From a virus: a stretch of DNA of 64,000 nt. The position numbers and the translations under genes are program-made. The notes under the pieces were generated by a model that was not told the origin of the DNA, did not search any database, and saw nothing but the letters and a program-made list of their open reading frames with translations. The stretch covers positions 1 through 64,000 of IMG/VR virus record IMGVR_UViG_3300030329_003436; one strand, 5' to 3'. Below, in pieces: positions 2,308-57,656 of this stretch (its first letter is position 1; each line of letters begins with the position of its first letter).

Positions 2308-2336
2308 TTGCAAAACATTGACTCTTTATGTATATT
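2308..2336 (+). promoter_or_regulatory. Sigma70-type promoter upstream of the ssb-sigma-glycan operon
   Basis: TTGCAA (2308-2313), 17-nt spacer, TATATT (2331-2336), in the intergenic gap. Confidence 0.6.
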
Positions 2337-2378
2337 AGATGTAGGAACTTTACAACACCCTGCACTGAAGGATCACGG

Positions 2379-2753: not shown

Positions 2754-3261
2754 TGAATTAGACAGAGTAACTCAAAAAAATCAAGAAGAGCTTGAAGAAC
2801 AACTGATCCGTAATAATTACGGGCTGGTAGTTTCTCAAGCTCTTTTATTTTTTAAAGACACGTCAAAACACTATACACTAGAAGATTGTATTCAGGTTGG
2901 CTTAGTAGGGTTATTAAAATCTATAAGAAAACATGATCCTAAAAAGTCTAAGTTTCCAGTGTACGCAACGGTGTGTATAAAAAATGCAATATCCAGCTTT
3001 GTAAAAAAACATAGTAAAAAGAACAAGGTTGTGTTTGATACAAAAGCACTTAATAGCTCATTAAATGGCAGACACTATCTTGACAAAGATAATATTGCAA
3101 GCTATCTGACTAAACTGAATGAGCAGGAATTGTTCATAATAACCAAGAAGATGGAAAACTACACTAACTCTGAGATATGCGAGATACTGTCTTGCACTAG
3201 AAACGCCTTAAAGAATAAAATTACAGATATAATTAATAAGCTTGAAGAACATAACAAATGA
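2746..3261 (+). CDS. Phage-encoded sigma70-family sigma factor (region 2 plus degenerate region 4)
   Basis: NYGLVVS, EDCIQVGLVGLLKSIRKHDP..SKFPVYATVCIKNAI; C-terminal HTH YTNSEICEIL. Confidence 0.85.
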   Translation: MSDELDRVTQKNQEELEEQLIRNNYGLVVSQALLFFKDTSKHYTLEDCIQVGLVGLLKSIRKHDPKKSKFPVYATVCIKNAISSFVKKHSKKNKVVFDTKALNSSLNGRHYLDKDNIASYLTKLNEQELFIITKKMENYTNSEICEILSCTRNALKNKITDIINKLEEHNK

Positions 3262-27485: not shown

Positions 27486-28028
27486 TTATTCAAAAAAGCC
27501 TTTGGTTTTCTTTGGTTGACCACCGTATGGGAGAAACCTATTTAAAGCTGCCTGTCTCTCTGAGCAGCCGCAATTTTCCCCTACTACTTTTTTGACTAAT
27601 TTTTTTATTCCAGTAACCTTAGTAAATTTAGCTAAGGTATCTCCCAGACCCCTAGACTTCTTGGGTATTTCTTTATCCCCCATAAAATACTCACCATCTT
27701 CAAAAAATCCTTTTTCTGGTTCCGGTTGATCTTCCTCCTCAAAAAACCCCGTCATATTATTTCCGGCTTCATTGCTTAGAAGATTTGCCGTAGGCATGGT
27801 AACTTTTCTGTCGTCCTTGACTGTTAATGCCGGATGGTTTTGGTTTGGCCCTTCACCCCTTTCCCACAAGGCAAAATATTTTGGATTTCTTTGACACAAG
27901 GAGTGCATGTGCTTGCTTTTTAAGCATTTATGCCTATCGCAAAATACGGAGGCTTCTCCATCAGAAATAGAACATTGACATCCAGTGTTACTATTTGGCT
28001 CAAAAAAGCCTTTAGTTTGTGCTGACAT
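27486..28028 (-). CDS. Small Cys-containing protein with GLGD...CGC..R..LN motif and four GFFE repeats
   Basis: CQC, CDRHKC, GLGDTLAKFT..TGIK...NCGCSERQAALN. Confidence 0.75.
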   Translation of the reverse strand: MSAQTKGFFEPNSNTGCQCSISDGEASVFCDRHKCLKSKHMHSLCQRNPKYFALWERGEGPNQNHPALTVKDDRKVTMPTANLLSNEAGNNMTGFFEEEDQPEPEKGFFEDGEYFMGDKEIPKKSRGLGDTLAKFTKVTGIKKLVKKVVGENCGCSERQAALNRFLPYGGQPKKTKGFFE

Positions 28029-28046: not shown

Positions 28047-31000
28047 TTATTCCTCGTATGAAGACCCTGAAGACTCTGTTACTGTAATCTTAAACACAGC
28101 CCCTTCTTCGTCGTAGGGTAGTCCTCTCCAAGGCCCATATCCTTCATAACAACCACTCTGGCATTCATAAAGAACTGTGGGTTGGAAAATATTACAACAA
28201 GACTCATGTGCAGTAACATAATACGTCAAATTAACTGGGGTTGTGCTATTCATTTGATGTGCGTTATTCGTTGGTTCTTTTGACCCTACTGTTATATCAA
28301 ATAACCCGCCATGACGACTCCATATAGCCTCGTTTTCATTATCACTAAACTTATGATAGGTTTCAGAACAACCCAAACCCTCAATTGCCTCGCAGTCATC
28401 AATGATTTTTCCGTATATATTCCTGTCATCTACATTCTTGTTGTAAAGAATATCCTTATATAAATCCTTTGCTGGACCAATGGCTATTTCATGACCAAAA
28501 TTCCTAGCCATAATATTGTCTTCAAAAGCCCCTCCTCCAGCAGATGTGGTTGTGCTTTGTGGATATCTTCCAAGACAATCACCGCTGGTAGTTTGACCAG
28601 TACTAATATAGCAAAACTCGTTGTCGGTACACACGCTTTCAATTCTTGAACAGGTGGAACCGTCCCATTCGCATCCATTTAACCCATGCACCTTACCAGC
28701 TTCTATACAGTCTTCTTCTAGTCTTTGCACATCACAATTTAAATCGTTGTACTTTTGACATGTCTTATAGTTTTCATCAAGCATGGGGTCAAAGGTTTCT
28801 ACGGATTCGCTATGAGCGCTTCCAGTCCCGGTGCCTATCGTGGAATCGTAAGGTGTTTTTGCGGCGGTCGATCCCGAAACGCCATGAGGAGTTCTTTTTG
28901 TGTTCTCAAGATCTTCAAAATGTATTGTTGACTCGTAATGAATACTAAACGTTGTTGAGCTATGAGTTTTGGCTACATGCTCATTATCAAATATGGATTC
29001 AGCTATCTTATACTCTGGGTCGTTCCCCTCGCCCTTGTCAATAAAGAGAGTTTCTTGGCAGTGACCTCCTTCGTCGCCTCCCATTGGAGTACAATTCAAG
29101 CCGCTCTTGTCTGTAAAACTGCTTAAACGACAATGTGCTGAACAACCCTCGTTGAACTCATGCCACTTACTCTTTGTTAGAAATTTACCTTGATAATCAT
29201 TCTCACAAATATGCTCATCAACTTTTACTCCTTCTGGTAGTCTGGAATCCCATACACCTCTTGGGCCGCACCATTTTCCTCCCATACCTTGACAATCGGT
29301 TGGGTCAGTAACAGTATCATCCCTAGACCCGTTTACTATGCAAAACTCAGATTCGCATTGTAATTTTGTCATACCTTCGATGACCGGCCCTTTAACCTCA
29401 CCCGTTGCATCAATACCAACACATTCGCCCGGAGGAGCGTCTTCGTCAAACTGATCAACACACTCTGCTTCATAAGTGACAGCTCCACTAATAACTATTT
29501 TTTCACCGTCTTGTAAGTCGTGTGGGTGTGTCGTTGTAAACAATGTGTGAAGAAAGTTTCCTTCTTGATCATATTCGTTTTCAATGGAACTAATAGCGAG
29601 TCTTCTTTTGTATAAATGCTCTAAAGTATCTGAGTCATACATTGTAGATGGTATCTTACCAATCACAACGGTTTCAGGAATTTCAGGGATGCTTTCGGTT
29701 TCTGTTCCTGTGTCATCAACTATACCACTAGATCCATCGTCACTTTGGCCACCGCCACTATCATCTTGTGGTGGGTCTTCTGAAGGAATTTGGCTAGCCA
29801 GTGCCTCGTCAGCTATTTCCTGCATTGTTTCCGCGTTAGGTATTAATCCAATTCTTCCGGGCGCGATATACCCAGTAACCCAAAGATCGGTCTTAAAAGG
29901 CTCTCTTAAGCTTTCAAGCCTATAGCCTGAGCTTTGGTGAGCCACCGGCCAAGGATTCAATCCGTATGGCGAAGGCTCATTTCTAACAAATCCTCCGTCC
30001 ATATACCGAAATCTGTTATTGGAAAAGACATCGTGCATCCATACGTTATTTTCGTTTCTTGTTCTTCTTTGTAGTTTCCTATCTAGTGCAGCATTTCCGG
30101 TTCTTAGTAACGTAGCGTCTTCTACACGAATTTCTATAAAACCACTATGATGCCTGTCTCCTCCCATGGGAATGGCTTCAGTAAGACTTGTGTACCCAAG
30201 ACCCATGGCCGGATTCTTGGATGTGTTATTTCTGGGGTAGTCACCAAGATTTCCTAATTCCGCCTCTATTCTATCAGCCCTACCTGTCGTGACTTTAGTT
30301 GGATACCATACGGCTCCTTGGTATGCTTCACAGTCATCCTTTGTATCAAAACGATTATTGCTACAATAACCTGTGGGCCAGTCTGGTGGGCCTCCAGCAC
30401 AACATTTTGTATTGCTAGTTCTTACTGTTAAAATGTCGTAACCACGCTCTCTCTTCCATTCGCCTCCCGCAGATTTTGCATCCCAATACTCTGCGTCCAT
30501 ATCTACATGATAAACGGTCATTTTTTCACCGTTGTACCACCAGTCTGGGAGCAGATCTTCTAGGCTTTGCGCCGTACCCCAGCATGTCGGAAAAGTATCG
30601 CTTCTGTGTGGCGGAACACCTTGAATAGGACATGTGGCGTAGCCATCTGTATTAATCCTACAGCAGGATACGCATGGCGGTGTGCCATCGCAATCTACCG
30701 TTGGTATACTAGAGCATTTCCCACATTCGGTTTCGCCGCAGCCACCATGCTTGTTGACACAATCATTGGAGTCTGTACATCCCGTACAACCAAAGTCCCA
30801 ATCATAAGGAGTCTTAGTAAGGCGTGTAGTCCAAGTACCATCGGCTGCTTCACAAGATTCTTGGTTAGGTTGGTCAATTGTTTCACCGTCTTCTCGGACA
30901 CATACTTCCTCTTGTACATTTTCGCGTGGACAGGGTGGTTTATAAGCATCGTCTCCACATGCGGGGAATGAACAAGTGGTAATTTCCCAAGCTAAACCTA

Positions 31001-34000
31001 GCTGATTATTATGATAATAATCTCCGGTTAGATTAAATTTAGCGCTACCGGAAGCAGCCATGCCATCGCCCGGAATTGGAGCGCCGTTGGAACATGCCAA
31101 ATTCATTCTTATCCAATGTCCATCTTGTGCTGGTTTAGGGAGAGGCGCTCTGGACGACCCAACACCAAAATCTCTTACGTCGTTCTTTGTTTCGCAAGCA
31201 CCGCAATCACATTCGTAACAAGTTTGAGACTTCCTATCTTTCTTGAAAGTCCATCCCTGTTCAGTACACCAATCCTTATATGATTGAAGCATCTGGGTAG
31301 CGTTGTGGGGATGTCTCAATACACCACAGTCATCAATACATTTACCTCCACCAAGACAGCAGCTTGGCCACTCATGGTGACTGCAAGAATATCCCCAACC
31401 AACACAGCCGTTACAACTCACACCCCCAACATAACGTTTGCTTGTATCAAAAGGACTGTATACACTGTCACTAAGAATTGCTGGATGACCCATAAACAGC
31501 CAGTCGGAAGCCCAGTAACCACCGTTATAAACAAGTGGTATATCTATCGGTTGGTCCAGTCCGGGGCAACCATCTCTTACGTCGTAATGTGTTTTGTAAC
31601 AATTTATGCCAGTTGCGGTGCTTGGTGGAAATTCTGCGCCGCCTTCGTTTTCGCATTTATGTGCTATACAGGTAGCCGACGTATCATCCCAAATACACTT
31701 ATTCGTCGCATTACAGTCTTGATTATTAGTTTTCTGTGCGCATATGGCGCTAGTTTTATTGTCCCTTCCCCATACTCCATTTCTGAAAGAACCATTAGGT
31801 GAACGCTCACAAGCGTCTCCACACCACGCGCCGTCACCCAGATTGGTAAACTGCTGATCACAAGTTATAAAATCTGTTTCACATAGGTCATCTCTTCCTT
31901 TTGGGTAGCCGGTACATGGCTCACATTCGCAATGTCCAGCCATAGGTGTTGGTTCACAATCAGCAATCGCCTGACCCCCGTTATCTTGACATTCATCGGG
32001 AAAGCCATCACCATCCGTATCAACCGGTGTCGCGTTTGCGGGATCGGCGCAGGTCGCGATAACAGCGAAGTCCGTACTACTGCCTGTGTAAGAACACTGA
32101 TATACGTCGGCCACCATGCGACACTTCATGTGATCACACCCCTTCGTCGGATGACACTGCCAGCTACCATCCGTTCCGCAGCCTCCACATTTTTGCACAA
32201 ATTCCTCAATTGTGGGGTTTTCTGGACAGCCGGAATCACACGCTCTTCCAGCAGCATTTTTGTCCATGCTCGTACATTCACAGTTACAGCATGGGTCAGT
32301 TAGTTTACCATGAGTTTGAAGCCAATCAATTGGGAGGCGGTCGTCATCAATGTAACTTTTTCTTGCATCAATCGGATGGAAAGCGCAATCGTCACAACAC
32401 TGTTTATTACAATGTTCTGTAAGACAAACACCAGAAGGAAGCGTGTCTGGATCGGTATCTTCCATGCAATCTGCTAAACAGGCTCCGTGTGTTTTGCCAC
32501 AGTGTTCGTTCTGCATAACGCTACAAGTCTTACCGTCAGCATACGGTTTTAAATGCCCAGTCCATACGCCATCCTCTGTGTAATCACGATTACATCGACT
32601 ATAACCAGCTTTTAACAGTCTAAATATAGAAGTATCTTGTGGGTGTACAGTGGCAACCAAATTTTCAGGCATAAAATGGTCAGCGCAAACAGGACAGTTC
32701 TCTTTTTGTTCTATTTGCACATAGTAATTGTCTGACATATTGGGCAAATCATACCTTGCCATGCCAGTGCCGTCCCAACCATCTCTATACTCATTTGAAA
32801 AATGATCGTAAGGTGTTGAGCTTTGGGTTTCAGGAGATATGTACCACATACCGGTATAAGGACATGTTTTATACGCTTCGACTCCCGATGTTCCTGTTGC
32901 TGGGTCGCCTATATCACCAACTATGAAATCATGGGGATTATCCCATGAAAACTGCTGCCAACACCCTGTTCCGTCAATGTCGCCAAAGATGTTTAACTCT
33001 GCGCACGGGGCAATTTGACCAGCAACAGCGTCTGCATATTTATGACCATTATCTTCATCGTATGAAACATAGACCTCCGCCAATTTACGACAATCCTCCA
33101 AGCTCATTATCGCTTCCGGCTGGGTTCCGGGCGGGTTTCCTCCAGCAACAATTTCACATCCACCATACGTAATACATGACTCTTCGCTTTCGAGAAAAAC
33201 TTCAGGGCTTGAAATAACAGTCGTGCTTAGTCCAGTTCCATCAACTGTTTGGCATGGGCATGCGGGTCTCAACCCATTGTGAGTAGCTACATAGCTTCCG
33301 CAAACCTTTTTTGTGCCATCAGTGAGGTCGCAAGATGTAAATCCTGTTGCAGTAACTTTGCCGTCTAAAGGCTCTCCATCACATGTAAATAGCTTGAAAT
33401 AATTTTCATCGTATTTTTCTACAACAACCCATGGGGCCGGAAGCGGATTCCCCTCGTCATCTTTGCCGCTGTAACAAGTGTCTATAGAAGTGCCATCCGA
33501 AAATGTTACTTGATAATTACAAGTACCATCGTCTTCTGGAGGGCATTTTGCTTCTGGCCATGCTTGTTTGTCACAATGTTCGCCCTTGCATTTTCCACCG
33601 TCTTTGTCTTCCCATACGGTTTCATTCCATTCCCTATTGGTCATTCTGTTTGCTTTAAAATTACCCAATACACCATTTATCTCAATCTGATCACCATTCT
33701 TAAGCAGGTGATTTCTTGACTTGATAATAACAGGACTGGTATTGCTTGCTATTTCAACCCTGCCAGATCTGGTTGTGCCTACGCAACTGTCTGCTACATA
33801 ACTAATTCCTTCTTCATCTGGGTTTGGGTAAAGACCAGTTCTTCCCCAATAATCTAAACTGTCTCCAGCGCTATTAGGCTGTATTAATTTAGTTCCGTTA
33901 TGACTGTACCCATAAACTAAATCTTTTAGTTCCGAGGGTATTTCTACTGTACTCTTGCAGCCAACACAATTACTAGAACCACACATGCCTAGCTCCTGAC

Positions 34001-37000
34001 AGGAGCCTTGAATCCACTCAAGAACCGGCCCCACACAGTCTGCTTCCGAATGACTTGTTGTTGTCTGGTCACTCGTTGTTCTACAGTAGCCTCCTTCGTT
34101 AATATCCCACTTACACTGTTCACTGTTACACTCTCCCGGCGTTTTGTTGCCTTCGCATGGGCAATTACTTCCGGGCAGATTCAGAGAATTCCATGAAAAA
34201 TCTGCGGCCAAGCAGTCTGCTTCATTATCATAAGGTTGCGGATTACCGTCCACGTCTACACATTCTGTAAGGTCACATCCAAGCTCTGATTTCCCCCATC
34301 CACAACCTATCCAATAACCACCAAGGACCAATTCACAATCGTCCCTGCCAGTGTCTCTACCTATGATATTAGGAGAGGGCAGTCCTGATGCGGGCGGTCT
34401 AGATGACAAACATACGCCTCTTCCTTCGCATTCACTTGGAGTAACCAGAATAGGCTCCTGCATCGCGTCTAATTCCATACATTCTGGATCTTCACAGGGG
34501 AACCAAGTTTTCCAGTTTGGCCCAACCTCTCCCGGCATACCAGTGCCGTTACATCTGCCGCCACACTGTGTTTCGCCGTAATGAGCAATTGTCCAATCGA
34601 GAACCTGTCTACCAATAGTTCGACACGGACCTCCAGCGGCGTGCATATTGTCAGCGGCGGTATAGGCAAAATCATTCTTAAACCAGAAATCATAACCCTG
34701 TGTCATGTCCCAGTTACAAAAAGCACCGCCCATCCCTGCGCCACAATCTTGATCACAATTTTCATGCGTGTCGCCTTCAGCTATGCATCCGTCATAGCAT
34801 CGCCAATAACTCACTCCAGAATCTATACAGGCGCTAAACATAGCAGCGTCTGTAACCGCTTCATCATATGTCTTATGCTTTTTCTGTTCTTGCTCTGTAG
34901 CCTTGAATGGCTGTGGGTGTATATTTAAAGCCCTTAACTTATAATGCCCTTTGGGATTGTCAATGCGGGCAAAACCGTTGGTATAACTGCTTTCGTAGTA
35001 GACATATTTACCACACCAACTTATCACGTCGCCTTCATGATTGTGTTCGTAATCTGGATCTCCGTCTAGATCTTCATCCCATATTGAACACCAAGATTTA
35101 TAGTCTCTAGAGCTATAATTATATGTTCCGGGGTAGAATCCTGCCGGATTACCATCTATATCCCCTCTACTATCTAACCATCTTGCCTGACCCCATTTTC
35201 CATCTTCACTGCCTTTAGCTCCAGCTATTGGGGTTTTTACGGTTAGGTCAAAGTTGGAACAATTGAGCATTTGATCAACAGGTATAAACAATACTGTTTC
35301 AAGACCCGGAGCGCCCTGTTTATGAGAAAGTTTTTCTAATTCTGCCGCCCATTGGTTTTGAGTCCATGTATGTATCGGATTACCATTATCATCTTTATAT
35401 GACAAACAGTCTTCTTGCGTAACATAGCCAGTATCTTGACCCTCTTTGTCTATACAAGCACCATCAGCAATACAGTCTTCACGATTATCATGTGTTGTTT
35501 CTTCAGGAGGAGTTGTTTGCTTCTGACAAACAGACGCCGGTCTTGATGAACAATCACCGTAGTAGTCACAACCCCTCAATATCAATGTAAAGTAATTGCC
35601 TCCGGTCATAGCGTCACCGGCTAAGGAGGTTCGCATGTGTGCGTTTTGTATTGAAGAGCAGGAGCTTGACGCGCCTAACATTGCTCCTCCCGACGCAATA
35701 TTTTCAGCGCCGGGGATAAGAATGGCTTCTCTATATGGGGTTATACAGGTGCCTTGGAGTCTTTCCTTGGTTAGCCCCGGTCCTCCAGCATTCATTTGTG
35801 ATGGCCCAGTTAGGTTGGGTTGGTGATTAGGCCCATCGTCTGAAATAGCATACCCACTACAACAGGCCGAAGGGTTGAAGCCACGATCCACCCACTTAGG
35901 ATACCAATCTCCACCGCAAGCCATACACTGCAATTCACCAACATTCCTACCCTCACCGTAGCATGTTCCGGTACTTGAATTCCACATACAGCCTTCTACA
36001 CCCAAGCAAGCGACTGGATCTGTGGTTGCTGCGCAGATATCGTCACAATCAGAGTGTAGTGGTATTTCATCACCGTTTTCGTCTAACTGTTCGCTACAAG
36101 TGGCCGCAGCTAAACATTCACTCTCTGTACATCCTTTTTCTGGAATCCAATCAAAACCGTTGTTGGTACACGTCTGTTCATCTTTAATTTGTGTATTTGT
36201 ACATACTCCACCACAATCTTTAAAAGCAGTCCCGTCTTTGTTTAAGCATCTACCAGACAATTGCGGAGCGATTTCACCATCTCTAAGACATCCAGTACGT
36301 ATAACATTGCTATCTTCGTTCCTACCTCCATAAACAGGAACGTCATTAAAATCTCCATAAATATTAGAGGAGTTTATTCTCCGGCCATCTGGACCTTGCG
36401 CCAAACTATCAATAGAGTCATAGACACCCTTAATACCGGAATAATTACAGTTAGATCGTTTTGAAATGGATTTTCCCGGCCATGGGTATGGTCTCCATTC
36501 TATTATTTTTTCGCCCCGCTGCATTGCTTCTAGAGCGCGAATCGACCGTTCGTTGAGTTCGTTTTTACCTCCAAAGTATGCATGTAGCGTATCTCGACAC
36601 GTTTCAGTGGTAGGGAGTATCGCGCTAATTGCAGGGCCAACCAGTGGAATCCTGCTGATGACAGCACCAGTGACCCACCCACATAATTCATATAGATTCT
36701 CTGCATGGTTTGCCGCTTCAATAAGCCTGTCTCTTACGTCATCGCAGTCTGTTTTTGTGGTGTAATTTGTCATCTCCTTATTTTCAAGAAGAAGCATGCA
36801 CTTTCCGTTAGTTTCTTCCCACGCTACTCTAGCCTGACTATCCGAAGTGTCTATAACGTCAATCGTAGTTACATCACATGGGTCGCAGTTAGGGTATAGA
36901 AGAACATCTTCATATTCATTGCCATTATAAATCTGTCCTCTACTCTTGGATGTTCCACCATCACAACATTTTCTACCACGCCAAGCGCCGTTATGATATC

Positions 37001-37337: not shown

Positions 37338-37345
37338 GTCTGTTC

Positions 37346-39172
37346 CTACCTAATTGCGGTCAGCGGGTAATCATCGTCTGGCCCGCAGTCTTCTCCAGTA
37401 ACAAAACCTTGAGCAAAAAACTTTCTTGTACAAGATGACATTTCACCCTGTTCGCAACCGGCATGGCTTACTATTTCCATCCCAAAGAATTCAGCTTGTA
37501 GTATTATATGAATAGGTATAACTTCTTTAACTGATATTGCTTCCTGATCAGTTACCGTACAAACCGTATCGCTTTTAGATCTACTATATTCGACTACAAT
37601 TCTTCTACCTGTATCATAACTTAAAAAGTTATCTCCTAGCATAAGTCCTTGATTTAATGGATTTTCAATAATTATTTTTTGGTATAAAAGCGGGAGGGCT
37701 GTTTCGCTGAAGGTTGGTTCGGATTTTGTGCCATCATCTTTTTGTTTTCCAAGAACCTTATCAACTAATTTTTCACCTTCTGTTTCGTAATCTTTTGTAG
37801 AACCCCATCCATGACACGGATCTCCTAATCTACGAGCATAAGGATTTCCACCAGCAGCTTTATAAAATTTGTCTCCACAGTTAATTCTTGAATTTTTTCC
37901 ATCTACTACATGATCTGTAGACCTTAGTATAACTGCATCATAAAAAGGGACGCACGCTCTTACAAATTCATTACAGTTTGCGTACAAGTTGTCGTTAGAA
38001 TCTTTTTTGGCCAGACATTGACCACACCAGTTTTCATCTTCTGGGTCGTAAATTTCTATGTCTGGGTATAAAGAGCTTTTAGGAAAGTACATAAAATAGT
38101 CACATTCATCCGATGGACAAGGGTTTCTATAAAGTCTACCCAAAGAAGCTATATTATTATTTATACCAAAATTAAAACTATTACTTCCATCTATTCCAGC
38201 TTTCGGTAGTATACACTTAGTTGCTTTGCATAAATAAATTCCATTATGTCTACCGCCAACCCATACTTTTCTATCTCTATCCCATCTTAGGTCAATGGGA
38301 CCGCTTTTCCATTGATCAGTTCTTTGCAGATGATGAGGGAGAAAGTGTATTTTGGGATTTTTCTGCGCGTAGTTAGCCGGTTCGTTTCTGGGAGATCCCC
38401 AAAAATCTGATTCTCTATCACCAACTCTTTGCACTGCATCATATTTAGCATTTGGGACGGGCATACCATGCGTGTCATACCCCCATCCCGTAAGAACAGC
38501 CGGTCCTCTTAGTCCAACAGGTCTTCCGGCTCCTCCCAACGCTTGATTCTCAGCGGTTATTCCTCCCAGTTTAGGATATGCAGTGCCTTCACCACCGTGC
38601 GTAAACTTAAGCTGACCCTTAACATCTTCTGTGCTTTCTCCACGAACCATGTAATTGACATTATGTCCCGATGGATATGGATATAAGGTTGATGAATTAA
38701 CCGTGCCAGAACCAATATGCCCCCAATCGGAAAGAACGATTTCTTCACCCTTTTCGTCTACAAAACTATAGGGCTTCTCAAAATGAGGCATCGCCTTTTG
38801 GCCGTCTACAATAAACCCTGTGGATGTAGCTGATTCACCCGCCGCGTTTCTTTTTGCAAAAGCGGCACTATAAGGAATAAAAAGACCATCAAGACTCATC
38901 CCCGACTGACTCTTCCAATGGTCGGCAGACTTATCATGATGCTTGTCTAAAAACTTGGTCTTAAAGTTGTTCTGTGTTGTGTATACAACTTGTGCAGTGA
39001 CATCCAAGTTGTCTATTGTCTCACCATCGTGACCTATCAAAGGAGACCCTGTTGGGTCAAGACTTGCTCCCCCTAAGTTCCTGTACAGAGTGCCGCCGAT
39101 CATATTGATAGATATGTCAGGGTTGTGTTTTTTACTGACATTTACGTCAGGATCTTTTCTTGGTTCTACCAT
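37346..39172 (-). CDS. Putative tail protein, Cys-rich C-terminal half
   Basis: Position; GLRGPAVLTGWGYD..G.PVP and GPIDLRWD motifs. Confidence 0.6.
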   Translation of the reverse strand: MVEPRKDPDVNVSKKHNPDISINMIGGTLYRNLGGASLDPTGSPLIGHDGETIDNLDVTAQVVYTTQNNFKTKFLDKHHDKSADHWKSQSGMSLDGLFIPYSAAFAKRNAAGESATSTGFIVDGQKAMPHFEKPYSFVDEKGEEIVLSDWGHIGSGTVNSSTLYPYPSGHNVNYMVRGESTEDVKGQLKFTHGGEGTAYPKLGGITAENQALGGAGRPVGLRGPAVLTGWGYDTHGMPVPNAKYDAVQRVGDRESDFWGSPRNEPANYAQKNPKIHFLPHHLQRTDQWKSGPIDLRWDRDRKVWVGGRHNGIYLCKATKCILPKAGIDGSNSFNFGINNNIASLGRLYRNPCPSDECDYFMYFPKSSLYPDIEIYDPEDENWCGQCLAKKDSNDNLYANCNEFVRACVPFYDAVILRSTDHVVDGKNSRINCGDKFYKAAGGNPYARRLGDPCHGWGSTKDYETEGEKLVDKVLGKQKDDGTKSEPTFSETALPLLYQKIIIENPLNQGLMLGDNFLSYDTGRRIVVEYSRSKSDTVCTVTDQEAISVKEVIPIHIILQAEFFGMEIVSHAGCEQGEMSSCTRKFFAQGFVTGEDCGPDDDYPLTAIR

Positions 39173-39173
39173 G

Positions 39174-42100
39174 TTATCCTCTGTAGTTACTACGGAACTG
39201 TTGTGGGTCTGGAAGTCTGCTTCTTCTCAGGTCTTCCTCCTGTTTTGTACGAATATCCCTTATCTGCTTTGCTTGTTCTCGAATACGTTGCTCTTGTATT
39301 TCTTGCAGATTTCCAAACTTTGGTTGTAGCTGCATGTTATAAGTTGTACTCATTCCATCCGGCCCTACATCAACCGACATATCTGTGATTATCGGACCAA
39401 AATACGGAGTCGCAGGTGGCCCAACAGCGTATAACGCTTGTAAATGTGGTGGGATTCTCGCCGGAATAGGTAAAGTACCAAAAGAAACATGGGTTCCTAA
39501 ATCATAAAAAGGTGGACCATCTAGCGTTACACTTCCCCTTTCGGTCTCTTGATTGATTTTAAATTGGTCTACATCTGCCAAGCATTTAGCTCTCGCAGCA
39601 AAAGCCATTTCGCTTTCTGCACCAAAGATTCCGGGGTGATAAGATGAGTCGTTAATATATAAAATCTTGCCCCAGTCTTTACCCTTAGACCACGGACCCC
39701 AATAGTAAATCCGACTCTCCATAGGAACCCCGGCATAGTAAGGCTTAAACGCAGCAGAAACCATAGGGGCTTTATTTATATCGGCACCCATTCTCATATG
39801 AACTGGATGATGGAAATAGTTGTTCAAAGCAGCCTTTAGATAAGCGTCTGCTGTTCTTGAGTCGCCAACCTTTGTAAGAGGGATGCATAGACTCGTTCCT
39901 TGAACCAGTTTTCGCCCAGACGTATCAACCCAATTATGCATCGGTATTGCTTCACACGCCGCTTTATCTAATATCGGCACGCTCGTGGCTGGATGAACTC
40001 TAACAACTCTTCCAGTAACTAAATCTTCACAATAACCACTACCTGCGGGGGTTACATTGTCAGCAGTGCATCTACCACCACTTATCCATGCAAATAATGG
40101 AGCTAAACATTCATCTTTTGGCCTGTCAACAACCTTGTCGGTGGATCTTTCTATACAAACCGCTGTCTCCCAGTGGCATCCTTCAGAATCGGGACCGGTC
40201 TGACATTCGTGTCTCGCAACCTTGTCAACCCATGTTCCACCATTGTCTAAACATAGTTCAGGCGTTCCCCATGTGGGATCGTTGTGGTCACGTTTGGCTA
40301 TACCGGCGCCTGTATCACAGTAAGGTATTCTATCACCAGCATCACAGTTATCATCAAACTCTTCTCCATCAGGAAACAGTTGGGCGCGTTTGTCATTGTA
40401 GGTATCAGGTAGGTCATATCTCGCGGCTCCACCTTCTATACTTATGAGAGCGTAAGGTTTTAAGAATGAACTTCGGACACTTCTCCCTTTCCATTCATGA
40501 TTAGCAGACCCTACAGTATTGAGAGCTAAACATTCCGCCTTGCTTTTTGGTGGTGGGTCGATAGCGTAATAAGGATCAGCCATTGGCTCGCCATCTTTAA
40601 AGCATTCTTTTTTTTCCGACTCATTGGTAAGAGTTTCTATATAACTAATCTCTGGCAACCAGTATATCTTAGGATCTACGCTAGCCTTAACAAATACGGT
40701 TCCATCTTGAGAAGCATCGCCAGCTATATCGGAATAGAATTGTTCTATATAGGTCTCAGGGTTAAATTCCCTAAAACTTAATTTGTGCGGCTGGTGGCTT
40801 AGTCTTTGAATTTCTGTATTAGGAAATGCTACAAAAGCTTCTAAATTACCATCAGAATTCCAGAAGTTTTGATTAGCGGGATATCTTAGGTTTTCTTTGC
40901 TATTTATTCTTGGTTCATCTTCTATCCATTCCACGGTGACATTATTATCAATACCATAAATATAACAATCGTTAAGCCTTCTAATTTCTATGAGTTCTTG
41001 TAAGTTGGTTGTATCTACGCATACCCCCACATCGTTAAATGGCCATCCGGCACTTGCTATGTCCCACCTATTGTCTACAATAATAACTTCGCCGTCCTTT
41101 TTAGAGACAACAGCCTGCCATTCACTTTGTATTCCGTAAGTAGACCACTTATGACCGTCATCTTCGCAGTCGGATATACTGTTATATTTATTCCAAGTGG
41201 CAGTAAAATTGACACAGTCTGTTTCGTTATCAATGGGCTTCCCGCCGTCTTCGCATGGAGATTCAAAGATGGCTGTTACCGACTTAGCCTTTTCCTCGCA
41301 TCCCGCTCTGGTCGATACGTCCACGGAATTGCCAGCAACGGTGATCAGGCCAGTATGTAGATTGCCATTTTCGTCTTTGCAGCATTGACATGTAGGACTT
41401 GCCGAGCATCCAACCTCAAGAGGTGGAGCAAACGGAAGCTGCATCAAATAAGTTCTTCCGTAATACTTGGTAGCTACTTCGTTGACAACTCTCCAAGAGA
41501 AATTCTTCTCCATCTTCTTGTGTTCTTCTGGAGTTAAATCAGCCCTTGTTCCCTTGCAGAGAAATGGAACACCTTCGTTATGCTCATCAACAGAAGTGTC
41601 GCCACTTTCGGATGGTTTTAGTACAGGGGGAATCGCCGGATACTCTGGACGGCCAACACCAAAGAATGCCTCCATAGCATGTTTCAAACCACCCTGCGTA
41701 CTATCGTTCATTATGCACTCTTTCCATTCCATCTTGCATGGAAGCCAAGAGTCATAATTTCTCATATATTTAAACCACGCATCCTGACTGGTAGCAGCGT
41801 GTCGCAATTCGGTAACTGTCGCTAGATAGTGGTTTTCAGCCACCCCGTCTACTAAAATGTCTTCGCCGCTAGGTCCATGAATAAACCCAGCCAAATGGAG
41901 ATTGATAGGAATTGTAGCGGTGTCAGGACGAACCAAATCTCCGGTGCCGGGATTCCAACCAGTCCACTTATGAGGCTCCCATCGTGTTTTACAGGTATTG
42001 TCACCAGCATGCTCCCTGCAACAATAGTCCCTACATCCTTGTTCGTCGCCTGCGGTTACTTCGCTTTCAACGTCAGCACCTGTAGACGGATCTACCTCAA

Positions 42101-45100
42101 TTTTTACACAAGTCCCTTCGTTTGCACATTCGCCAGCGGTCAGCCCTGATACTCCAGCGGGTGCAGCAGTACTCGGATCAACATGGTAAGGTTCACATTT
42201 TGCGTTTTCGTCACAGTCCTGTTTGTTATTATGATCCGTGTTTATACACCCACCCTCTTGAGCTTGTCTCATTCCGGTGATAAAATTATAAGGATCTGGT
42301 TCGTCGTGGAATGTGCATCTTGAAAATGTAACATCAACCTCTTCTGCTGTTACAATAGCGTTCCCCGTTCTTACCCAGCTACCACCCAATTTTTCGCAAC
42401 ATAGTTTGCTTTCTGGGTCACATTCAGGATCGGTGTCAGGACAGGTCATTCCCGTACAAGATCCTTCTTGCGAGCTTGTCATGACAACTTCTTTTCTTCC
42501 GTAAGGATCATGGCAAAACAATGTATAACTGTATCCAGTAGCTACTTTCTTTTTCCTCTTCTCTCCATTCTCTACTATAGTTACAGTATCATAGAGACAT
42601 GTGTCCATCTCGTGGCGTGAATCTTTATAACCAATGTTATGAAAGTTAAGATTGGAGGGTGATGGAATATGGACCGAACTACATTTTCCTTCGTATCTGT
42701 CGAAAAATTCCTTATTGCTATAAATTCCGTCTTCTGAATCAAAATCTCTGTATGGGTCGTCATCATTAAATGCGCCTTTGATCGGGTTTCCTCTAGTTGT
42801 ATTTTTTACAAACCCATCAGAAGGAGTATTGATTAGCTGCTGATCGCTTATTGACCACCCCCACATCGGATACAGATCTATGTAACCATCCCCTTCTTCA
42901 AAAGAATTGGACAACCAAACCGCTCCACGGTTGCCGCTAGAGTCTGTCCATGCAGCACAGTTTACTCTACTCGATTCGTCAATCTTAGTCCAAGTACCAA
43001 GAGGGGAAGCTGGAGGTGTATCACAACTAACCTTACTGCTTCTTCCGGCTATAACATCACCAGCACCATCAAGGCACGCATAACAATTTCCACCAAAATC
43101 TATTCCTTCACAGGACTCATCGCCGTTGTGGTTATTTTCGTCAGATTCTTCCGAAGCATCAGCGTGCGGAGTACAATTGCCTCTTGCGGCCTCATTAAGC
43201 CTGCCCATGTCAGCCTTTATAATGCCTTCATCATCGTCAAAAGGATGAAAATGATTTTGCCAAGCTCGATATTCATCGCTTGACCAGCCAAGAGTGTATG
43301 TCCACTTCTCCCATTTTTTACCAGCGGCAATACAAGCAGCTTCTGTTGTGTGTGCCGGATCGTCACATTGTCCTGTGCATGTAGCAGGATACCCTCTTTG
43401 AGTCCCCGGAGCCTCATGACCTTCTGGGGTTAGACATATACCACCCCTAGCTCTCGCTTTGCCTCTTTCATCGTAAGTGTCTATAGGTTGACTTCCAGTA
43501 ACATAACCCAGACTTGCTCCATCTAATTCTGTACTGGGTAAGTATTCCATAGGCCATTCGTCGGGAATACCATCGCCATCCTTATCAACATATTCGTCGT
43601 ATCTGGGTTTTCGCTTACCTAATGGAGTTACGCCAACAACTCTTGTTCTTGGCCCTCCAAGCATAAATACGCCAGTATAAACATCGTTGTATTCATAGCC
43701 GACATTTGTATTGCGGATGATAGGTTCAGAGTAGCCTAATGATGTACCATCCCACTTGAACTGTTCTTCCGTCCACCATGCGGTTGGGCTTCTTTTTACC
43801 AAAGCGTCATCAATACTGTCTGAAACAATATGAGGAACAATCTTATCTGCTTGGTTTCTTGGAATTGCCCATACTTTAATAATTCCAGCATAGGTACTAT
43901 CTTGAACAGTGGGTGCAGCAACACGCGAGGGTCCATACCAATTATTATATGCAATCCCGGCAAACGGGGTTACGCTTCCGGGTTCTGGGTCACGAATTAA
44001 CTCAACAAAAAAATCTGCTCCGGCGGCTTCACAAATGGTTTGGATAAGAGAAAGTAGACTGACATGATTTTCGTTTATACGAAGACTCGAATCTAGATTT
44101 CCTCCCCCCCAAGGACGTTGACTACCCGGAATTTTAGAAGGGGGATTTTTAACCTTATGAAGATTATATAAATCAGTCAGATCTACTTTATATCTATACG
44201 GGCCTTCTTTTCTGTCAGAAGTCCTGCCTCTACCAGCGATAACCACGGGTTCATCGTCTGGACTAAAAGTATTTCTGTTGTCTGTGACATAATACGATGG
44301 GCCACCCATAGGCTCATTTGCTCTTTTATAACATTCGTCTCCACCCATGAGCATAAAATTAAGAGCTGGTAGAATACCAAATTCCTGTTTTTCAAAAGGC
44401 GTGCCGCTAAGTCCTAGTGCGGCACCACCCCAAGTGCCACCGGGATCACACCCAAAAGGAGGATCAATTTTGACATCGGGATCGTACCATACCATCCCAG
44501 CTTCTTTCATTTCAGCGTTTCCAAACCTTCCGTTTGGATTGGCTCCGCTATTACCCAACTCTTCAAAAATACCGCCGGGAGGAGCAAGGTAATCAGATGC
44601 GGTAGGTGTTAAATCTGCAAACCCGTCAATATCCGGTCTAAACTGAGAGAACTCATAGTACCCAAACACGTTCAATATATTATAATAGCCGCTATACCCT
44701 TTTTCCATAGCCCTCATGTTGGGGATATCTCTGGTGTTTGCTGGTTCCGTCCCAGAATAGCCACTGATTAAATCATTACCGTCATAGAACCCTTCTACCG
44801 CATCTGGGTAATCAATATCTGCTGGCGCCACGGGGTTTATAAATCTTTCCCCTAACAACACTATGGTGTCTTCCAGAACAACTCTTGGGTCTACTACCTC
44901 TACCTGATAGGTTATTCCACGTTCGCTATAGTCTTTTTTTACATTTTTGATAATACCATTAAATTCAAAAATAGAGCTATCTTGGTAATCATATTGATCT
45001 GCACCAGTAGCCGGTGGTGGTTTATGATTAGGATGCGTTACCCCCCACTCGCGTAATCTATAATTAAAATAGACCGGCGCGCCAGCCCTTGGTTTAAAAA

Positions 45101-45509
45101 AGTAATCGCCGTTCTGTAAGTAGTCTGGTACTTCGTCAACAACTCTCCTGCTACTTGCATTAATAGCGGCACAGTCGCAGTTTTCCCAAGGTCGGATATC
45201 AGTTACGCAATTGGGCGCGCAAGGCTGTCCAACTTTAACACCAGTAGAACGTTCTGCATCATAAAGTTCTAGTGGAAATGCCTGAGTATCCCAAGGATGA
45301 TATCCTTCCTTAACAGCGTTTGGATTTCTTAGAAACTTATCATCTTCCACTAAAGACACATTTAGCGTAGAGGGCTGGCTATTTAGCCCTAAATTAACGC
45401 TAAAGTTTGTAATAGACGCACCAAGAAAAGACTGTTGAAATATTTCTTGGTTAATTTTATTTTTTGCGTTACTGGGAAGAGTAACTGGATTGTTTTGTGG
45501 TTTAGGCAT
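39174..45509 (-). CDS. Putative tail hub/tip protein with Cys-rich insertions (2111 aa)
   Basis: Hub-like N-terminus (FLGASI..F..NLG..STL.V.LVED, FNGII, VVDPR) and C-terminus (ERGSVTLDG, ITDMSVDVG); about 60 Cys in the inserts. Confidence 0.65.
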   Translation of the reverse strand: MPKPQNNPVTLPSNAKNKINQEIFQQSFLGASITNFSVNLGLNSQPSTLNVSLVEDDKFLRNPNAVKEGYHPWDTQAFPLELYDAERSTGVKVGQPCAPNCVTDIRPWENCDCAAINASSRRVVDEVPDYLQNGDYFFKPRAGAPVYFNYRLREWGVTHPNHKPPPATGADQYDYQDSSIFEFNGIIKNVKKDYSERGITYQVEVVDPRVVLEDTIVLLGERFINPVAPADIDYPDAVEGFYDGNDLISGYSGTEPANTRDIPNMRAMEKGYSGYYNILNVFGYYEFSQFRPDIDGFADLTPTASDYLAPPGGIFEELGNSGANPNGRFGNAEMKEAGMVWYDPDVKIDPPFGCDPGGTWGGAALGLSGTPFEKQEFGILPALNFMLMGGDECYKRANEPMGGPSYYVTDNRNTFSPDDEPVVIAGRGRTSDRKEGPYRYKVDLTDLYNLHKVKNPPSKIPGSQRPWGGGNLDSSLRINENHVSLLSLIQTICEAAGADFFVELIRDPEPGSVTPFAGIAYNNWYGPSRVAAPTVQDSTYAGIIKVWAIPRNQADKIVPHIVSDSIDDALVKRSPTAWWTEEQFKWDGTSLGYSEPIIRNTNVGYEYNDVYTGVFMLGGPRTRVVGVTPLGKRKPRYDEYVDKDGDGIPDEWPMEYLPSTELDGASLGYVTGSQPIDTYDERGKARARGGICLTPEGHEAPGTQRGYPATCTGQCDDPAHTTEAACIAAGKKWEKWTYTLGWSSDEYRAWQNHFHPFDDDEGIIKADMGRLNEAARGNCTPHADASEESDENNHNGDESCEGIDFGGNCYACLDGAGDVIAGRSSKVSCDTPPASPLGTWTKIDESSRVNCAAWTDSSGNRGAVWLSNSFEEGDGYIDLYPMWGWSISDQQLINTPSDGFVKNTTRGNPIKGAFNDDDPYRDFDSEDGIYSNKEFFDRYEGKCSSVHIPSPSNLNFHNIGYKDSRHEMDTCLYDTVTIVENGEKRKKKVATGYSYTLFCHDPYGRKEVVMTSSQEGSCTGMTCPDTDPECDPESKLCCEKLGGSWVRTGNAIVTAEEVDVTFSRCTFHDEPDPYNFITGMRQAQEGGCINTDHNNKQDCDENAKCEPYHVDPSTAAPAGVSGLTAGECANEGTCVKIEVDPSTGADVESEVTAGDEQGCRDYCCREHAGDNTCKTRWEPHKWTGWNPGTGDLVRPDTATIPINLHLAGFIHGPSGEDILVDGVAENHYLATVTELRHAATSQDAWFKYMRNYDSWLPCKMEWKECIMNDSTQGGLKHAMEAFFGVGRPEYPAIPPVLKPSESGDTSVDEHNEGVPFLCKGTRADLTPEEHKKMEKNFSWRVVNEVATKYYGRTYLMQLPFAPPLEVGCSASPTCQCCKDENGNLHTGLITVAGNSVDVSTRAGCEEKAKSVTAIFESPCEDGGKPIDNETDCVNFTATWNKYNSISDCEDDGHKWSTYGIQSEWQAVVSKKDGEVIIVDNRWDIASAGWPFNDVGVCVDTTNLQELIEIRRLNDCYIYGIDNNVTVEWIEDEPRINSKENLRYPANQNFWNSDGNLEAFVAFPNTEIQRLSHQPHKLSFREFNPETYIEQFYSDIAGDASQDGTVFVKASVDPKIYWLPEISYIETLTNESEKKECFKDGEPMADPYYAIDPPPKSKAECLALNTVGSANHEWKGRSVRSSFLKPYALISIEGGAARYDLPDTYNDKRAQLFPDGEEFDDNCDAGDRIPYCDTGAGIAKRDHNDPTWGTPELCLDNGGTWVDKVARHECQTGPDSEGCHWETAVCIERSTDKVVDRPKDECLAPLFAWISGGRCTADNVTPAGSGYCEDLVTGRVVRVHPATSVPILDKAACEAIPMHNWVDTSGRKLVQGTSLCIPLTKVGDSRTADAYLKAALNNYFHHPVHMRMGADINKAPMVSAAFKPYYAGVPMESRIYYWGPWSKGKDWGKILYINDSSYHPGIFGAESEMAFAARAKCLADVDQFKINQETERGSVTLDGPPFYDLGTHVSFGTLPIPARIPPHLQALYAVGPPATPYFGPIITDMSVDVGPDGMSTTYNMQLQPKFGNLQEIQEQRIREQAKQIRDIRTKQEEDLRRSRLPDPQQFRSNYRG

Positions 45510-57598: not shown

Positions 57599-57610
57599 GT
57601 TGGGAACCCC

Positions 57611-57656
57611 AAAAAAAATGGGCATACCGATAGCGCAGAGCTACGCGATACACCCA
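57611..57656 (-). terminator. Terminator-like hairpin directly upstream of the tape measure start
   Basis: TGGGTGTATCG pairs with CGGTATGCCCA and is followed by T8, ending 12 nt before the ATG. Confidence 0.65.

What the first reader, a model, noticed from the sequence alone, without database searches (positions are those of the whole stretch)
28047..45509. About 5800 aa of cysteine-rich, eukaryote-extracellular-like tail proteins in a bacteriophage
Seen: three consecutive tail-module ORFs (3096, 608 and 2111 aa) rich in C/D/G/W, with roughly 185-190 Cys (~6%) in the largest and ~60 in the hub-like one. I saw no Cys in the ~2340-aa tape measure protein and no signal peptides. Known: phage tails fold in a reducing cytoplasm and are normally Cys-poor. 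Inference: either disulfides form after lysis or through a dedicated oxidase, or the proteins bind many metal ions; either would be an unusual receptor-binding apparatus.
Basis: partly seen in the sequence, partly recalled or inferred. Interest (0 to 1): 0.85.

Follow-up and report, generated by a model that had tools for sequence, protein, structure and literature searches.

The report
Giant cysteine-rich marine phage tail proteins
An uncultured marine long-tailed phage builds the tip of its tail from a hub protein and a 3096-residue giant that carry about 250 strictly conserved cysteines, most likely disulfide-locked mini-domains, which raises the open question of how a virus assembled in a reducing cell makes so many disulfides.

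Summary
The three ORFs after a Cys-free 2346-aa tape measure have 187 (6.0%), 14 and 62 (2.9%) cysteines. Other structural genes have 0-0.5%. There are no signal peptides.

The cysteines are the most conserved residues: 98% are kept in homologs that are 60-75% identical overall. At least 12 related marine viral contigs share the gene order and the Cys richness.

The 2111-aa protein starts with a gp27/VgrG-like baseplate hub fold. Its Cys-rich segments are inserts that shorter orthologs lack. No Pfam, PHROG or PDB sequence match exists, so "eukaryote-extracellular-like" is a resemblance in composition only.

CxxC spacing is not enriched and His is not specially conserved. Cys gains and losses among close homologs mostly come in twos or fours. 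I therefore favour disulfide-closed mini-modules, plus Ca-binding-like loops and a few metal sites.

No Erv, DsbA, DsbB or VKOR gene is present. Relatives carry a signal-less thioredoxin with a DsbA-type WCPHC site, which is a candidate folding catalyst. It lies near a ribonucleotide reductase and beyond the end of this record.

Cultured cyanophage P-SS2 has an unrelated analogue: gp084, 10.8% Cys, detected in virions. The scan has also noted similar giant Cys-rich tail proteins on other DNA.

The parts
28047..37337 (-). Giant 3096-aa Cys-rich distal tail protein (A). Probably the central fibre or adhesin downstream of the hub. It is very acidic (478 D+E against 240 K+R).
   Evidence: 187 Cys. 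98% of Cys are kept at 60-75% identity. Orthologs of 2195 to more than 3330 aa have 3.9-6.65% Cys in the same position in at least 10 contigs. No Pfam, PHROG or PDB sequence hit. Enriched C..[TSDN]xxxC..W hairpin motif: 7 seen against 2.0 expected.
37346..39172 (-). Conserved 608-aa tail-tip protein (B). All 14 Cys lie in the C-terminal half.
   Evidence: 11 Cys are invariant in orthologs at 46-51% identity. Orthologs of 596-683 aa carry 13-14 Cys in every relative.
39174..45509 (-). 2111-aa baseplate hub / Tal-like protein (C) with Cys-rich inserts.
   Evidence: 62 Cys. 62/62 are conserved at about 70% identity. Orthologs of 1238-1471 aa lack the Cys-rich segments at about 700-900, 1000-1200, 1300-1500 and 1700-1900.
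43440..45509 (-). N-terminal 690 residues of C: a gp27/VgrG-like hub fold.
   Evidence: AF2 pLDDT 51, pTM 0.57. About 45 of the top 50 PDB matches are hub or spike proteins, Z 5-8.1, with 170-220 residues aligned.
27486..28028 (-). Small 180-aa protein directly after the giant gene, with conserved CxC, C-DRHK-C and CGC cysteines and a KKTKGFF(E) tail. Candidate assembly or folding factor, or a tip protein.
   Evidence: 7 Cys in 180 aa, all 7 invariant in the two orthologs aligned; the same position holds a protein of 166-194 aa with 9 Cys in both relatives. Only a weak PHROG hit of unknown function. No Pfam hit.
48029..50569 (-). 846-aa protein next to the tape measure, with a Laminin_G_3 domain and an N-terminal Cys module that carries the same C..GGxW motif.
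   Evidence: PF13385 at 5e-11. 8 Cys in residues 101-200. Three motif hits against 0.08 expected.
45529..48027 (-). 832-aa tail protein between the LamG protein and the hub. Nearly Cys-free.
   Evidence: 1 Cys. Syntenic in relatives.
50585..57625 (-). Tape measure protein, 2346 aa, Cys-free. It anchors the module as a siphovirus-type tail.
   Evidence: PF10145 at 2.9e-31. 0 Cys.

Best explanation
These are the distal tail (baseplate hub and downstream fibre or adhesin) proteins of a clade of large marine siphovirus-like phages.

A conserved, Cys-poor structural scaffold carries many small inserted modules. These are two-Cys hairpins of the form C..[T/S/D/N]xxxC..G.W, denser cystine knots, and acidic DxDG-type loops. 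In the mature virion in oxic, Ca-rich seawater they are held together mainly by intramolecular disulfides (up to about 90 per chain of the giant), helped by Ca2+ and a few local metal sites. They give a rigid, protease-resistant and fast-evolving surface for binding the host or particles.

Shown: the counts, the conservation, the clade-wide synteny, the hub fold, the absence of export signals and the absence of classical oxidases.

Inferred: that the cysteines are disulfide-bonded; that oxidation happens at or after lysis, or late in infection, rather than by a classical oxidase; and that the giant protein is an adhesin or fibre.
For: - Counts and contrast with the Cys-free tape measure and other structural proteins.
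- Cys is the most conserved residue at every distance: 0.98 at 60-75% identity and 0.65-0.76 at about 30%. His is average.
- C keeps 62/62 Cys at 70% identity.
- CxxC and zinc-ribbon-like arrays are not enriched: 14 against 11.8, and 2 against 0.6.
- Cys differences among close homologs of A mostly come in twos or fours. Pairs C124/C151, C1728/C1734 and C1975/C1978 are lost together. C1085/C1101 and C2146/C2162 disappear as whole hairpin modules.
- Cys-rich segments of C are inserts that shorter orthologs lack.
- Hub fold of the C N-terminus.
- Same layout in at least 12 related contigs.
- Marine or seawater metagenomes in several studies, and Tara sources.
- No signal peptide or TM segment.
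- Analogue: P-SS2 gp084, 282 Cys in 2612 aa, detected in purified virions (PMC2784084 Table 2).
- Disulfides in phage tails are documented on a small scale: Pam3 (PMC9942802), and NBD2 gp39, Milano and Qbeta (PMC13576161).
Against: - No structure-level evidence.
- The Cys total is odd (187).
- The pairing test is informal: 16 of 24 clusters are even in A, and only 7 of 17 in the hub family, where alignments are poorer.
- Some invariant clusters look like metal sites: HPCNVGCGCHxVC near residue 50, and CPVCxDH at 1548-1554.
- Modules that need disulfides to fold would be unfolded during cytoplasmic assembly unless something oxidises them. No oxidase was found.
- Virion presence of these particular proteins is untested.
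Confidence: 0.6

Rival explanations
1. Phage-run cytoplasmic oxidative folding. The clade's own signal-less thioredoxin-fold protein with a DsbA-type WCPHC active site, often paired with a canonical WCGPC thioredoxin, forms or shuffles the disulfides of the tail proteins inside the infected cell. This would be analogous in logic to the poxvirus E10R-A2.5L-G4L pathway. It concerns when and how oxidation happens, and is compatible with the disulfide reading above.
For: - The WCPHC thioredoxin is above the Pfam cut-off in relatives.
- The motif is kept in 40 of 41 IMG/VR loci, and 26 of 41 have an upstream WCGPC partner.
- It is a tight family of about 96 clusters with a sharp E-value gap. Where a sample name is given it is Tara Oceans, and the longest contigs reach 138 kb.
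- It co-occurs with the A or B family on 9 contigs.
- By synteny it should lie about 19 kb beyond the left end of this record.
- A cytoplasmic CPHC thioredoxin, Patrx2, has a potential of -170 mV and disulfide isomerase/oxidase activity in vitro (PMC12830090).
- CPHC-thioredoxin helps cytoplasmic oxidative folding in E. coli (PMC3526497).
Against: - It is not in this window or record.
- In G010 it sits in the replication and nucleotide-metabolism block, about 4 kb from a class II ribonucleotide reductase. An RNR-reductant role is the ordinary explanation.
- P-SS2, whose protein is even more Cys-rich, has only CGFC and CRPC thioredoxin-like genes next to its RNR.
- No terminal oxidase (Erv, DsbB, VKOR) is present to recycle it.
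- Co-occurrence is within one clade, so it is not independent evidence.
Confidence: 0.2
2. The cysteines mainly bind metals (Zn, Fe-S or Cu), giving metal-stabilised knuckles that can fold in a reducing cytoplasm.
For: - It removes the need for oxidation in the cytoplasm.
- A few invariant clusters resemble metal sites: H50-P-C-N-x-G-C-G-C...C62, C1548-P-V-C-x-D-H1554, and in B C352-x4-C357 with C383-x2-C386.
- From my own knowledge, not checked here: lambda-type tail tips are known to hold an Fe-S cluster.
Against: - CxxC is seen 14 times against 11.8 expected. CxxC..CxxC arrays are seen 2 times against 0.6.
- His is 2.5% and of average conservation.
- Most modules contain only two Cys, which are gained or lost as pairs.
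- No zinc-finger or Fe-S Pfam family was hit.
Confidence: 0.12
3. The ORFs are not virion tail components, or the cysteines are free reactive thiols, for example for covalent capture of host surface molecules or for redox sensing.
For: No direct proteomic evidence exists for this phage. The Cys total is odd, which leaves at least one unpaired Cys.
Against: - Position between the tape measure and fibre-accessory-like small genes, and the hub fold of C.
- The P-SS2 analogue is found in virions.
- 187 free thiols in oxic seawater would oxidise anyway.
Confidence: 0.05

Closest known systems
Cyanophage P-SS2 gp084 (ORF084; Sullivan et al. 2009, PMC2784084; NC_013021)
   Same: - A marine siphovirus with a very long tail and a Cys-free tape measure.
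- A giant tail-module protein (2612 aa) packed with Cys: 282, or 10.8%.
- No known domains.
- Detected in purified virions, 43 peptides.
   Different: - No detectable sequence similarity to A or C (BLASTP E above 0.07).
- A different motif style: dense CxxxC/CxC knots, few Trp, and no C..G.W hairpins.
- Different genome backbone: only one weak shared gene.
- The paper does not mention the cysteines.
gp27/VgrG/Mu gp44-type baseplate hub and siphophage Tal proteins (e.g. 1K28, 4MTK, 1WRU, 6V8I, 9H4P)
   Same: - The gene lies downstream of the tape measure.
- The N-terminal ~610 residues of the 2111-aa protein give structural matches almost only to hubs and spikes (Z 5-8.1).
   Different: - No sequence-profile match to any hub family.
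- The protein is three to six times longer.
- It carries Cys-rich inserts that are unknown in solved hubs.
Disulfide-crosslinked phage tails: Pam3 wedge-fibre bonds (PMC9942802); NBD2 gp39 tube, Milano sheath and baseplate (PMC13576161)
   Same: Disulfides exist in tails of phages assembled in the cytoplasm. In Pam3 they are needed for fibre attachment and are DTT-sensitive.
   Different: Those cases involve 1-6 cysteines per subunit, used as inter-subunit staples. Here hundreds of conserved Cys appear to build the domains themselves.
Poxvirus / NCLDV cytoplasmic disulfide pathway (Erv-family oxidase plus thioredoxin-like carriers; from my own knowledge, plus PMC3509050 for the mimivirus Erv)
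   Same: A virus that assembles in the cytoplasm needs disulfide-bonded structural proteins. The clade encodes a thioredoxin-fold protein with an oxidising-type active site.
   Different: No Erv/ALR oxidase is present in this record or in complete relatives. The link between the thioredoxin and the tail proteins is untested.
Pseudomonas aeruginosa Patrx2, a cytoplasmic CPHC thioredoxin (PMC12830090)
   Same: A small signal-less thioredoxin fold with a CPHC active site. Patrx2 is PDI-like: -170 mV, with isomerase activity.
   Different: The phage protein belongs to a separate, tight family known only from metagenomes. Its redox properties have not been measured. It is not encoded in this window.

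Membership tests
Siphovirus tail module (tape measure followed by distal tail proteins) | Tape measure protein with a PhageMin_Tail domain immediately upstream on the same strand | tested here: met
   PF10145 at 2.9e-31 in 50585-57625(-). Five large ORFs follow on the same strand with gaps of 1-19 nt between them.
gp27/VgrG-like baseplate hub (Tal) | Hub fold in the N-terminal region | tested here: met
   About 45 of the top 50 VIA rows are hub or spike chains, Z 5-8.1, 170-220 residues aligned over model residues 20-612. Foldseek's top rows are also hubs, but with E of 1.8e-3 or weaker. The model has moderate confidence (pLDDT 51, pTM 0.57), so this is a fold-level match only.
gp27/VgrG-like baseplate hub (Tal) | Sequence-profile match to a hub family (Pfam) or to solved hub sequences | tested here: not met
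   No Pfam family for any of 12 family members. The profile search against PDB sequences gave nothing at E up to 1.
Eukaryotic extracellular Cys-rich domains (EGF, TSP1, PSI, TSP type 3 and others) | Pfam domain match | tested here: not met
   0 Pfam families at E up to 0.01 for all three proteins. Only single DxDGDGxPD motifs occur, at residue 1774 of A and residue 642 of C.
Zinc-ribbon / zinc-knuckle arrays | Excess of CxxC and of paired CxxC..CxxC, with conserved His | tested here: not met
   CxxC 14 against 11.8 expected, and arrays 2 against 0.6. His conservation is average.
Disulfide-rich modular proteins (functional class, not a homology family) | Cys far more conserved than other residues, and gained or lost in pairs | tested here: inconclusive
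   The conservation criterion is clearly met. Pairing holds in most events in A (16 of 24 clusters are even, with clear pair losses) but not in the hub family (7 of 17).
Disulfide-rich modular proteins (functional class) | Cys sulfurs at disulfide geometry in a structure | not testable with these tools
   The AF2 model of residues 1590-2350 has pLDDT 36, and coordinates are not returned.
Viral Erv/ALR or bacterial DsbA/DsbB/VKOR oxidative pathway | Gene for the oxidase in the genome | tested here: not met
   - PF04777 and PF01323: no match in this record or in relatives that are 90% and 100% complete.
- PF02600: no match in those records or in two further partial relatives.
- PF07884: only one sub-threshold match of 15.7 bits, in a 39-aa frame.
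Thioredoxin family, DsbA-type CPHC subgroup (relatives' gene) | Thioredoxin fold with a WCPHC site and no signal peptide; present in this record | tested here: not met
   It is present and above the cut-off in relatives. It is absent from this 64%-complete record. Synteny places it about 19 kb beyond the record's left end.
P-SS2 gp084 family | Sequence homology | tested here: not met
   Best BLASTP E is 0.077 to C and 0.86 to A. tblastn of A and C against 50,697 phage records gave no match.

The most novel reading that the evidence does not exclude
A widespread clade of marine siphoviruses runs its own cytoplasmic oxidative-folding system. A PDI-like WCPHC thioredoxin is partnered with a WCGPC thioredoxin, and possibly with the small CxC/CGC protein encoded right after the giant gene. 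Together they would install about 90 disulfides per chain in a giant tail adhesin before lysis. This would be a prokaryotic-virus counterpart of the poxvirus pathway, but without an Erv oxidase.
Probability: 0.15. Interest if true: 0.85.

Novelty: new variant of a known kind. Interest (0 to 1): 0.6.

Why it matters
Phage host-recognition machines are the main determinant of who infects whom in the ocean. Here, and independently in cultured cyanophage P-SS2, the tail tip is dominated by thousands of residues of conserved, cysteine-packed sequence with no known family.

If these are cystine-stabilised mini-domains, marine phages have evolved their own "extracellular matrix-like" building blocks for oxic, Ca-rich seawater. 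They must also solve an oxidative-folding problem that textbooks treat as absent from bacterial cytoplasm.

This gives a concrete, testable question. P-SS2 can be grown. It also gives a source of new small disulfide scaffolds and a candidate oxidising thioredoxin family.

Tried and rejected
- **Family and sequence searches, all blank.** Pfam and PHROG scans of the three proteins; PDB sequence searches, single and profile; Pfam scan of 12 hub-family members.
- **Phage record searches.** megablast and tblastn against 50,697 phage records gave no match for A or C. The tape measure gave only distant hits.
- **ESM Atlas.** One call failed and one gave no usable hit.
- **AF2 of the densest Cys region** (residues 1590-2350, 7-sequence alignment): pLDDT 36, unusable. 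It was not searched further.
- **BLASTP self-comparison.** No internal repeats were detectable; the modules are too short and divergent.
I could not fetch the 148-kb ENA contig carrying a 99%-identical copy, so I could not confirm the thioredoxin pair for this exact phage.
- **Genome-contig scan with the 608-aa family.** No bacterial or archaeal genome holds it, so there is no host clue. The host remains unknown.
- **Sequencing runs.** No RNA holder is listed.
- **BFVD fold search of the hub model.** Only weak, mostly unnamed phage tail proteins.
- **P-SS2 as a relative.** Rejected: only one weak shared gene.
- **Thioredoxin as proof of a dedicated oxidase.** Rejected as proof because it lies close to an RNR and because P-SS2 lacks the WCPHC type.


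Full report
**What is there.**

The window is the first 64 kb of a 97.6-kb IMG/VR viral record that is linear and about 64% complete. On the minus strand sits a 2346-aa tape measure protein at 50585-57625, with PF10145 at 2.9e-31. Tightly packed ORFs of 846, 832, 2111, 608, 3096, 180 and 237 aa follow it.

Exact cysteine counts are 187 in the 3096-aa protein (6.04%), 14 in the 608-aa protein (2.3%) and 62 in the 2111-aa protein (2.94%). The tape measure has none. Head, neck and tube-region ORFs have 0-0.5% Cys, and the record without the three proteins averages about 1.1%.

None of the three has a hydrophobic N-terminus or a TM segment. The one nuance is that the 608-aa protein is only mildly enriched.

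**The genes are real, and the cysteines are under selection.**

Homologs of the giant were found at 99, 70, 56, 54 and 46% BLAST identity. In the alignments, Cys is conserved at 98%, 98% and 94% where overall identity is 75%, 63% and 59%. It is still 65-76% conserved at about 30% identity. It is the most conserved residue type at every distance, whereas His is average.

The hub-like protein keeps 62 of 62 Cys at about 70% identity and 59-60 of 62 at 57%. Eleven of the 14 Cys in the 608-aa protein are invariant at 46-51% identity.

Ten IMG/VR loci found through the 608-aa family show the same gene order. Two further contig ends also carry the C-terminus of a giant-family protein. The ortholog of the giant is 2195 to more than 3330 aa, with 3.9-6.65% Cys. 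Four more contigs are collinear with the window's left arm at 60-90% amino-acid identity.

The DNA recurs in marine and seawater metagenomes from several studies, and some homologs come from Tara Oceans. No bacterial or archaeal genome in the GTDB set holds the family. The host is unknown.

**What the proteins are.**

Nothing matches by sequence. There is no Pfam or PHROG family, no PDB sequence match even with a profile, and no hit in 50,697 phage records. An exhaustive phmmer search with residues 1201-2400 of the giant against 1.84 billion representatives returned only 15 proteins. So "eukaryote-extracellular-like" describes composition, not ancestry.

A model of the first 690 residues of the 2111-aa protein was built from a 16-sequence alignment (pLDDT 51, pTM 0.57). 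Its structural matches are almost exclusively baseplate hub or spike proteins. They include the HFTV1 tail, PVC Pvc8, VgrG1, the cyanophage A-1(L) baseplate, Mu gp44, T4 gp27 and the 80alpha and NF5 Tal proteins. Z is 5-8.1 with 170-220 residues aligned. Each Z alone is middling, but the uniformity of the list and the gene's position make a hub/Tal assignment sound at fold level.

Orthologs of only 1238-1471 aa keep the scaffold but lack the segments at about 700-900, 1000-1200, 1300-1500 and 1700-1900. Most of the cysteines sit in those segments. The Cys-rich parts are therefore inserts in a Cys-poor hub.

The giant follows the conserved 608-aa protein. It has a conserved N-terminus, conserved Cys-free stretches (for example 2350-2600) and a conserved C-terminal domain. 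That fits a central fibre or adhesin, but this is inference from position.

**Disulfides or metals?**

Cys spacing is broad. CxxC occurs 14 times against 11.8 expected from shuffles. CxxC..CxxC arrays occur 2 times against 0.6. H..C and C..H are only slightly raised. His is not specially conserved. This argues against arrays of zinc knuckles.

A short module of the form C-x(5-16)-[TSDN]-x3-C-x(2-8)-W recurs. It appears 7 times in the giant against 2.0 expected (0 of 300 shuffles reach this). It appears 3 times in the hub. The related C..GGxW form appears 3 times in the 846-aa protein against 0.08 expected. Acidic D-x-G-[NDE]-P loops occur 5 times against 0.02, and each large protein has one DxDGDGxPD motif. 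These suggest Ca2+ binding.

Among close homologs of the giant, differences in Cys come mostly in twos or fours:
- C124/C151, C1728/C1734 and C1975/C1978 are substituted together.
- C1085/C1101 and C2146/C2162 vanish as whole hairpin modules.
- Inserted segments bring 2 or 4 Cys.

A crude parity count gives 16 of 24 even clusters. Several of the "odd" ones are pairs that the clustering rule split. The hub family, with poorer alignments, gives 7 of 17. I read this as moderate support for cystine pairs, not proof.

A few invariant clusters look like genuine metal sites, so a mixture is likely. They are HPCNVGCGCHxVC near residue 50, CPVCxDH at 1548-1554, and Cx4C...Cx2C in the 608-aa protein.

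**How could they be oxidised?**

No Erv/ALR, DsbA, DsbB or VKOR gene exists in this record or in relatives judged 90% and 100% complete.

The relatives do encode a 99-108-aa thioredoxin-fold protein without a signal peptide. Its active site is WCPHC, the DsbA-type dipeptide. The motif is kept in 40 of 41 IMG/VR loci. In 26 of them a canonical WCGPC thioredoxin lies immediately upstream.

The family is tight: about 96 clusters, followed by a gap from E 5e-17 to 1e-6. Its members come from metagenome sources, and the only sample names given are Tara Oceans. It co-occurs with the giant or 608-aa families on nine contigs. By synteny with two collinear contigs it should lie about 19 kb beyond the left end of this record, so its absence here reflects truncation.

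A cytoplasmic CPHC thioredoxin from Pseudomonas, Patrx2, has a PDI-like potential of -170 mV and forms and isomerises disulfides in vitro (PMC12830090). CPHC-thioredoxin has also been used to aid cytoplasmic oxidative folding (PMC3526497). This makes the phage protein a fair candidate.

The evidence is circumstantial, however:
- The gene sits in the nucleotide-metabolism block, about 4 kb from a class II ribonucleotide reductase.
- No terminal oxidase is present.
- The co-occurrence is within a single clade.

The 180-aa protein encoded right after the giant has conserved CxC, C-DRHK-C and CGC cysteines in all orthologs. It belongs to no known family, and its role is open.

My preferred reading is that most oxidation, and Ca2+-dependent folding of the decorative modules, is completed late in infection or after release into oxic, Ca-rich seawater. 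A phage-encoded catalyst is a live alternative.

**Precedent.**

Its gp084, just downstream of the tape measure genes, has 282 Cys in 2612 aa (10.8%), while its tape measure has none. Sullivan et al. list ORF084 as an "unknown structural protein" with 43 peptides detected in purified virions. They never mention cysteine (PMC2784084).

It shows no sequence similarity to the proteins here and uses different motifs. The genomes share only one weak gene. P-SS2's thioredoxin-like genes are of CGFC and CRPC type and lie next to its RNR.

Giant hyper-Cys-rich tail proteins therefore exist in virions of at least one cultured marine siphovirus, apparently undiscussed, and have arisen more than once. 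Documented phage-tail disulfides involve only a few Cys per subunit: Pam3, NBD2 gp39 and Milano. The scan has also flagged similar giants on other DNA.

**Verdict.**

This is a new, dark protein family set on a known kind of machine, a siphovirus tail tip. Most probably it is decorated with cystine-locked, Ca-binding mini-modules. The unusual scale, about 250 conserved Cys across the hub and fibre, poses a concrete oxidative-folding question. It is not unique: P-SS2 is a cultured analogue, and the mechanism remains inferred.

Interest is 0.6. Confidence in the disulfide-module reading is about 0.6. A dedicated phage oxidative-folding system is at about 0.15-0.2.

Noticed in passing
window 3258-26633 (+): A block of about 23 kb of sugar-nucleotide and glycosyltransferase genes. 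It includes GT1 x3, GT2, GT25, GT34, four GDP-mannose-dehydratase/epimerase-like proteins, three methyltransferases, a sulfotransferase, HAD, a cupin, WavE-like and two nucleotidyltransferases. It is conserved and collinear in relatives. It may glycosylate virion proteins or remodel the host surface.
   Followed up: partly
window 69-3261 (+): A DEDDh exonuclease (RNase_T), the C-terminal (finger) part of DnaE as a separate ORF, SSB and a sigma-70 region 2 protein. In relative G010 the PHP/NTPase half of DnaE is a separate gene upstream.
   Followed up: no
relatives: L018 1483-2089, L020 1495-2094, L019 1158-1740, L021 1152-1731: Tandem thioredoxin pair: WCGPC followed by WCPHC. Most WCPHC copies also keep a third Cys (V/I-x-C-[SND]-[KR]-P). 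In two relatives the pair is flanked by a trypsin-like peptidase and an NAD-epimerase.
   Followed up: partly
window 37346-39172 (-), residues 352-386: The 608-aa protein has invariant C352-x4-C357 and C383-x2-C386 next to an invariant YPDIEIYDPED motif. This is a possible single metal or Fe-S site, as known in lambda-type tail tips (the comparison is from memory).
   Followed up: no
genome 73453-79083 (-), outside the window (L002 9453-15083): A second giant ORF (1876 aa, only 5 Cys) in the head-proximal structural block. It has a weak match (E 4e-11) to P-SS2 virion protein gp074.
   Followed up: no
relative G010 1-42000 (L079-L081): The part missing from this record encodes PhoH, DUF1501, Peptidase_M19, a matrixin-like M10 peptidase, ClpP, RecA, DnaB, dUTPase, dCMP deaminase, PAP2 and a class II RNR. 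M19, M10 and DUF1501 are unusual phage cargo.
   Followed up: no
window 27486-28028 (-): The C-terminal GLGDTxAKxTKxTGIK...CGC..RQ..LN...KKTKGFFE region is invariant across orthologs at 46-53% identity. [KT]GFFE recurs inside the protein.
   Followed up: partly
NC_013021 (P-SS2) 64657-72495: gp084 of the cultured cyanophage P-SS2 is 10.8% Cys (282 of 2612). It is a virion protein, but it is annotated only as hypothetical, and the original paper does not mention its cysteine content.
   Followed up: yes
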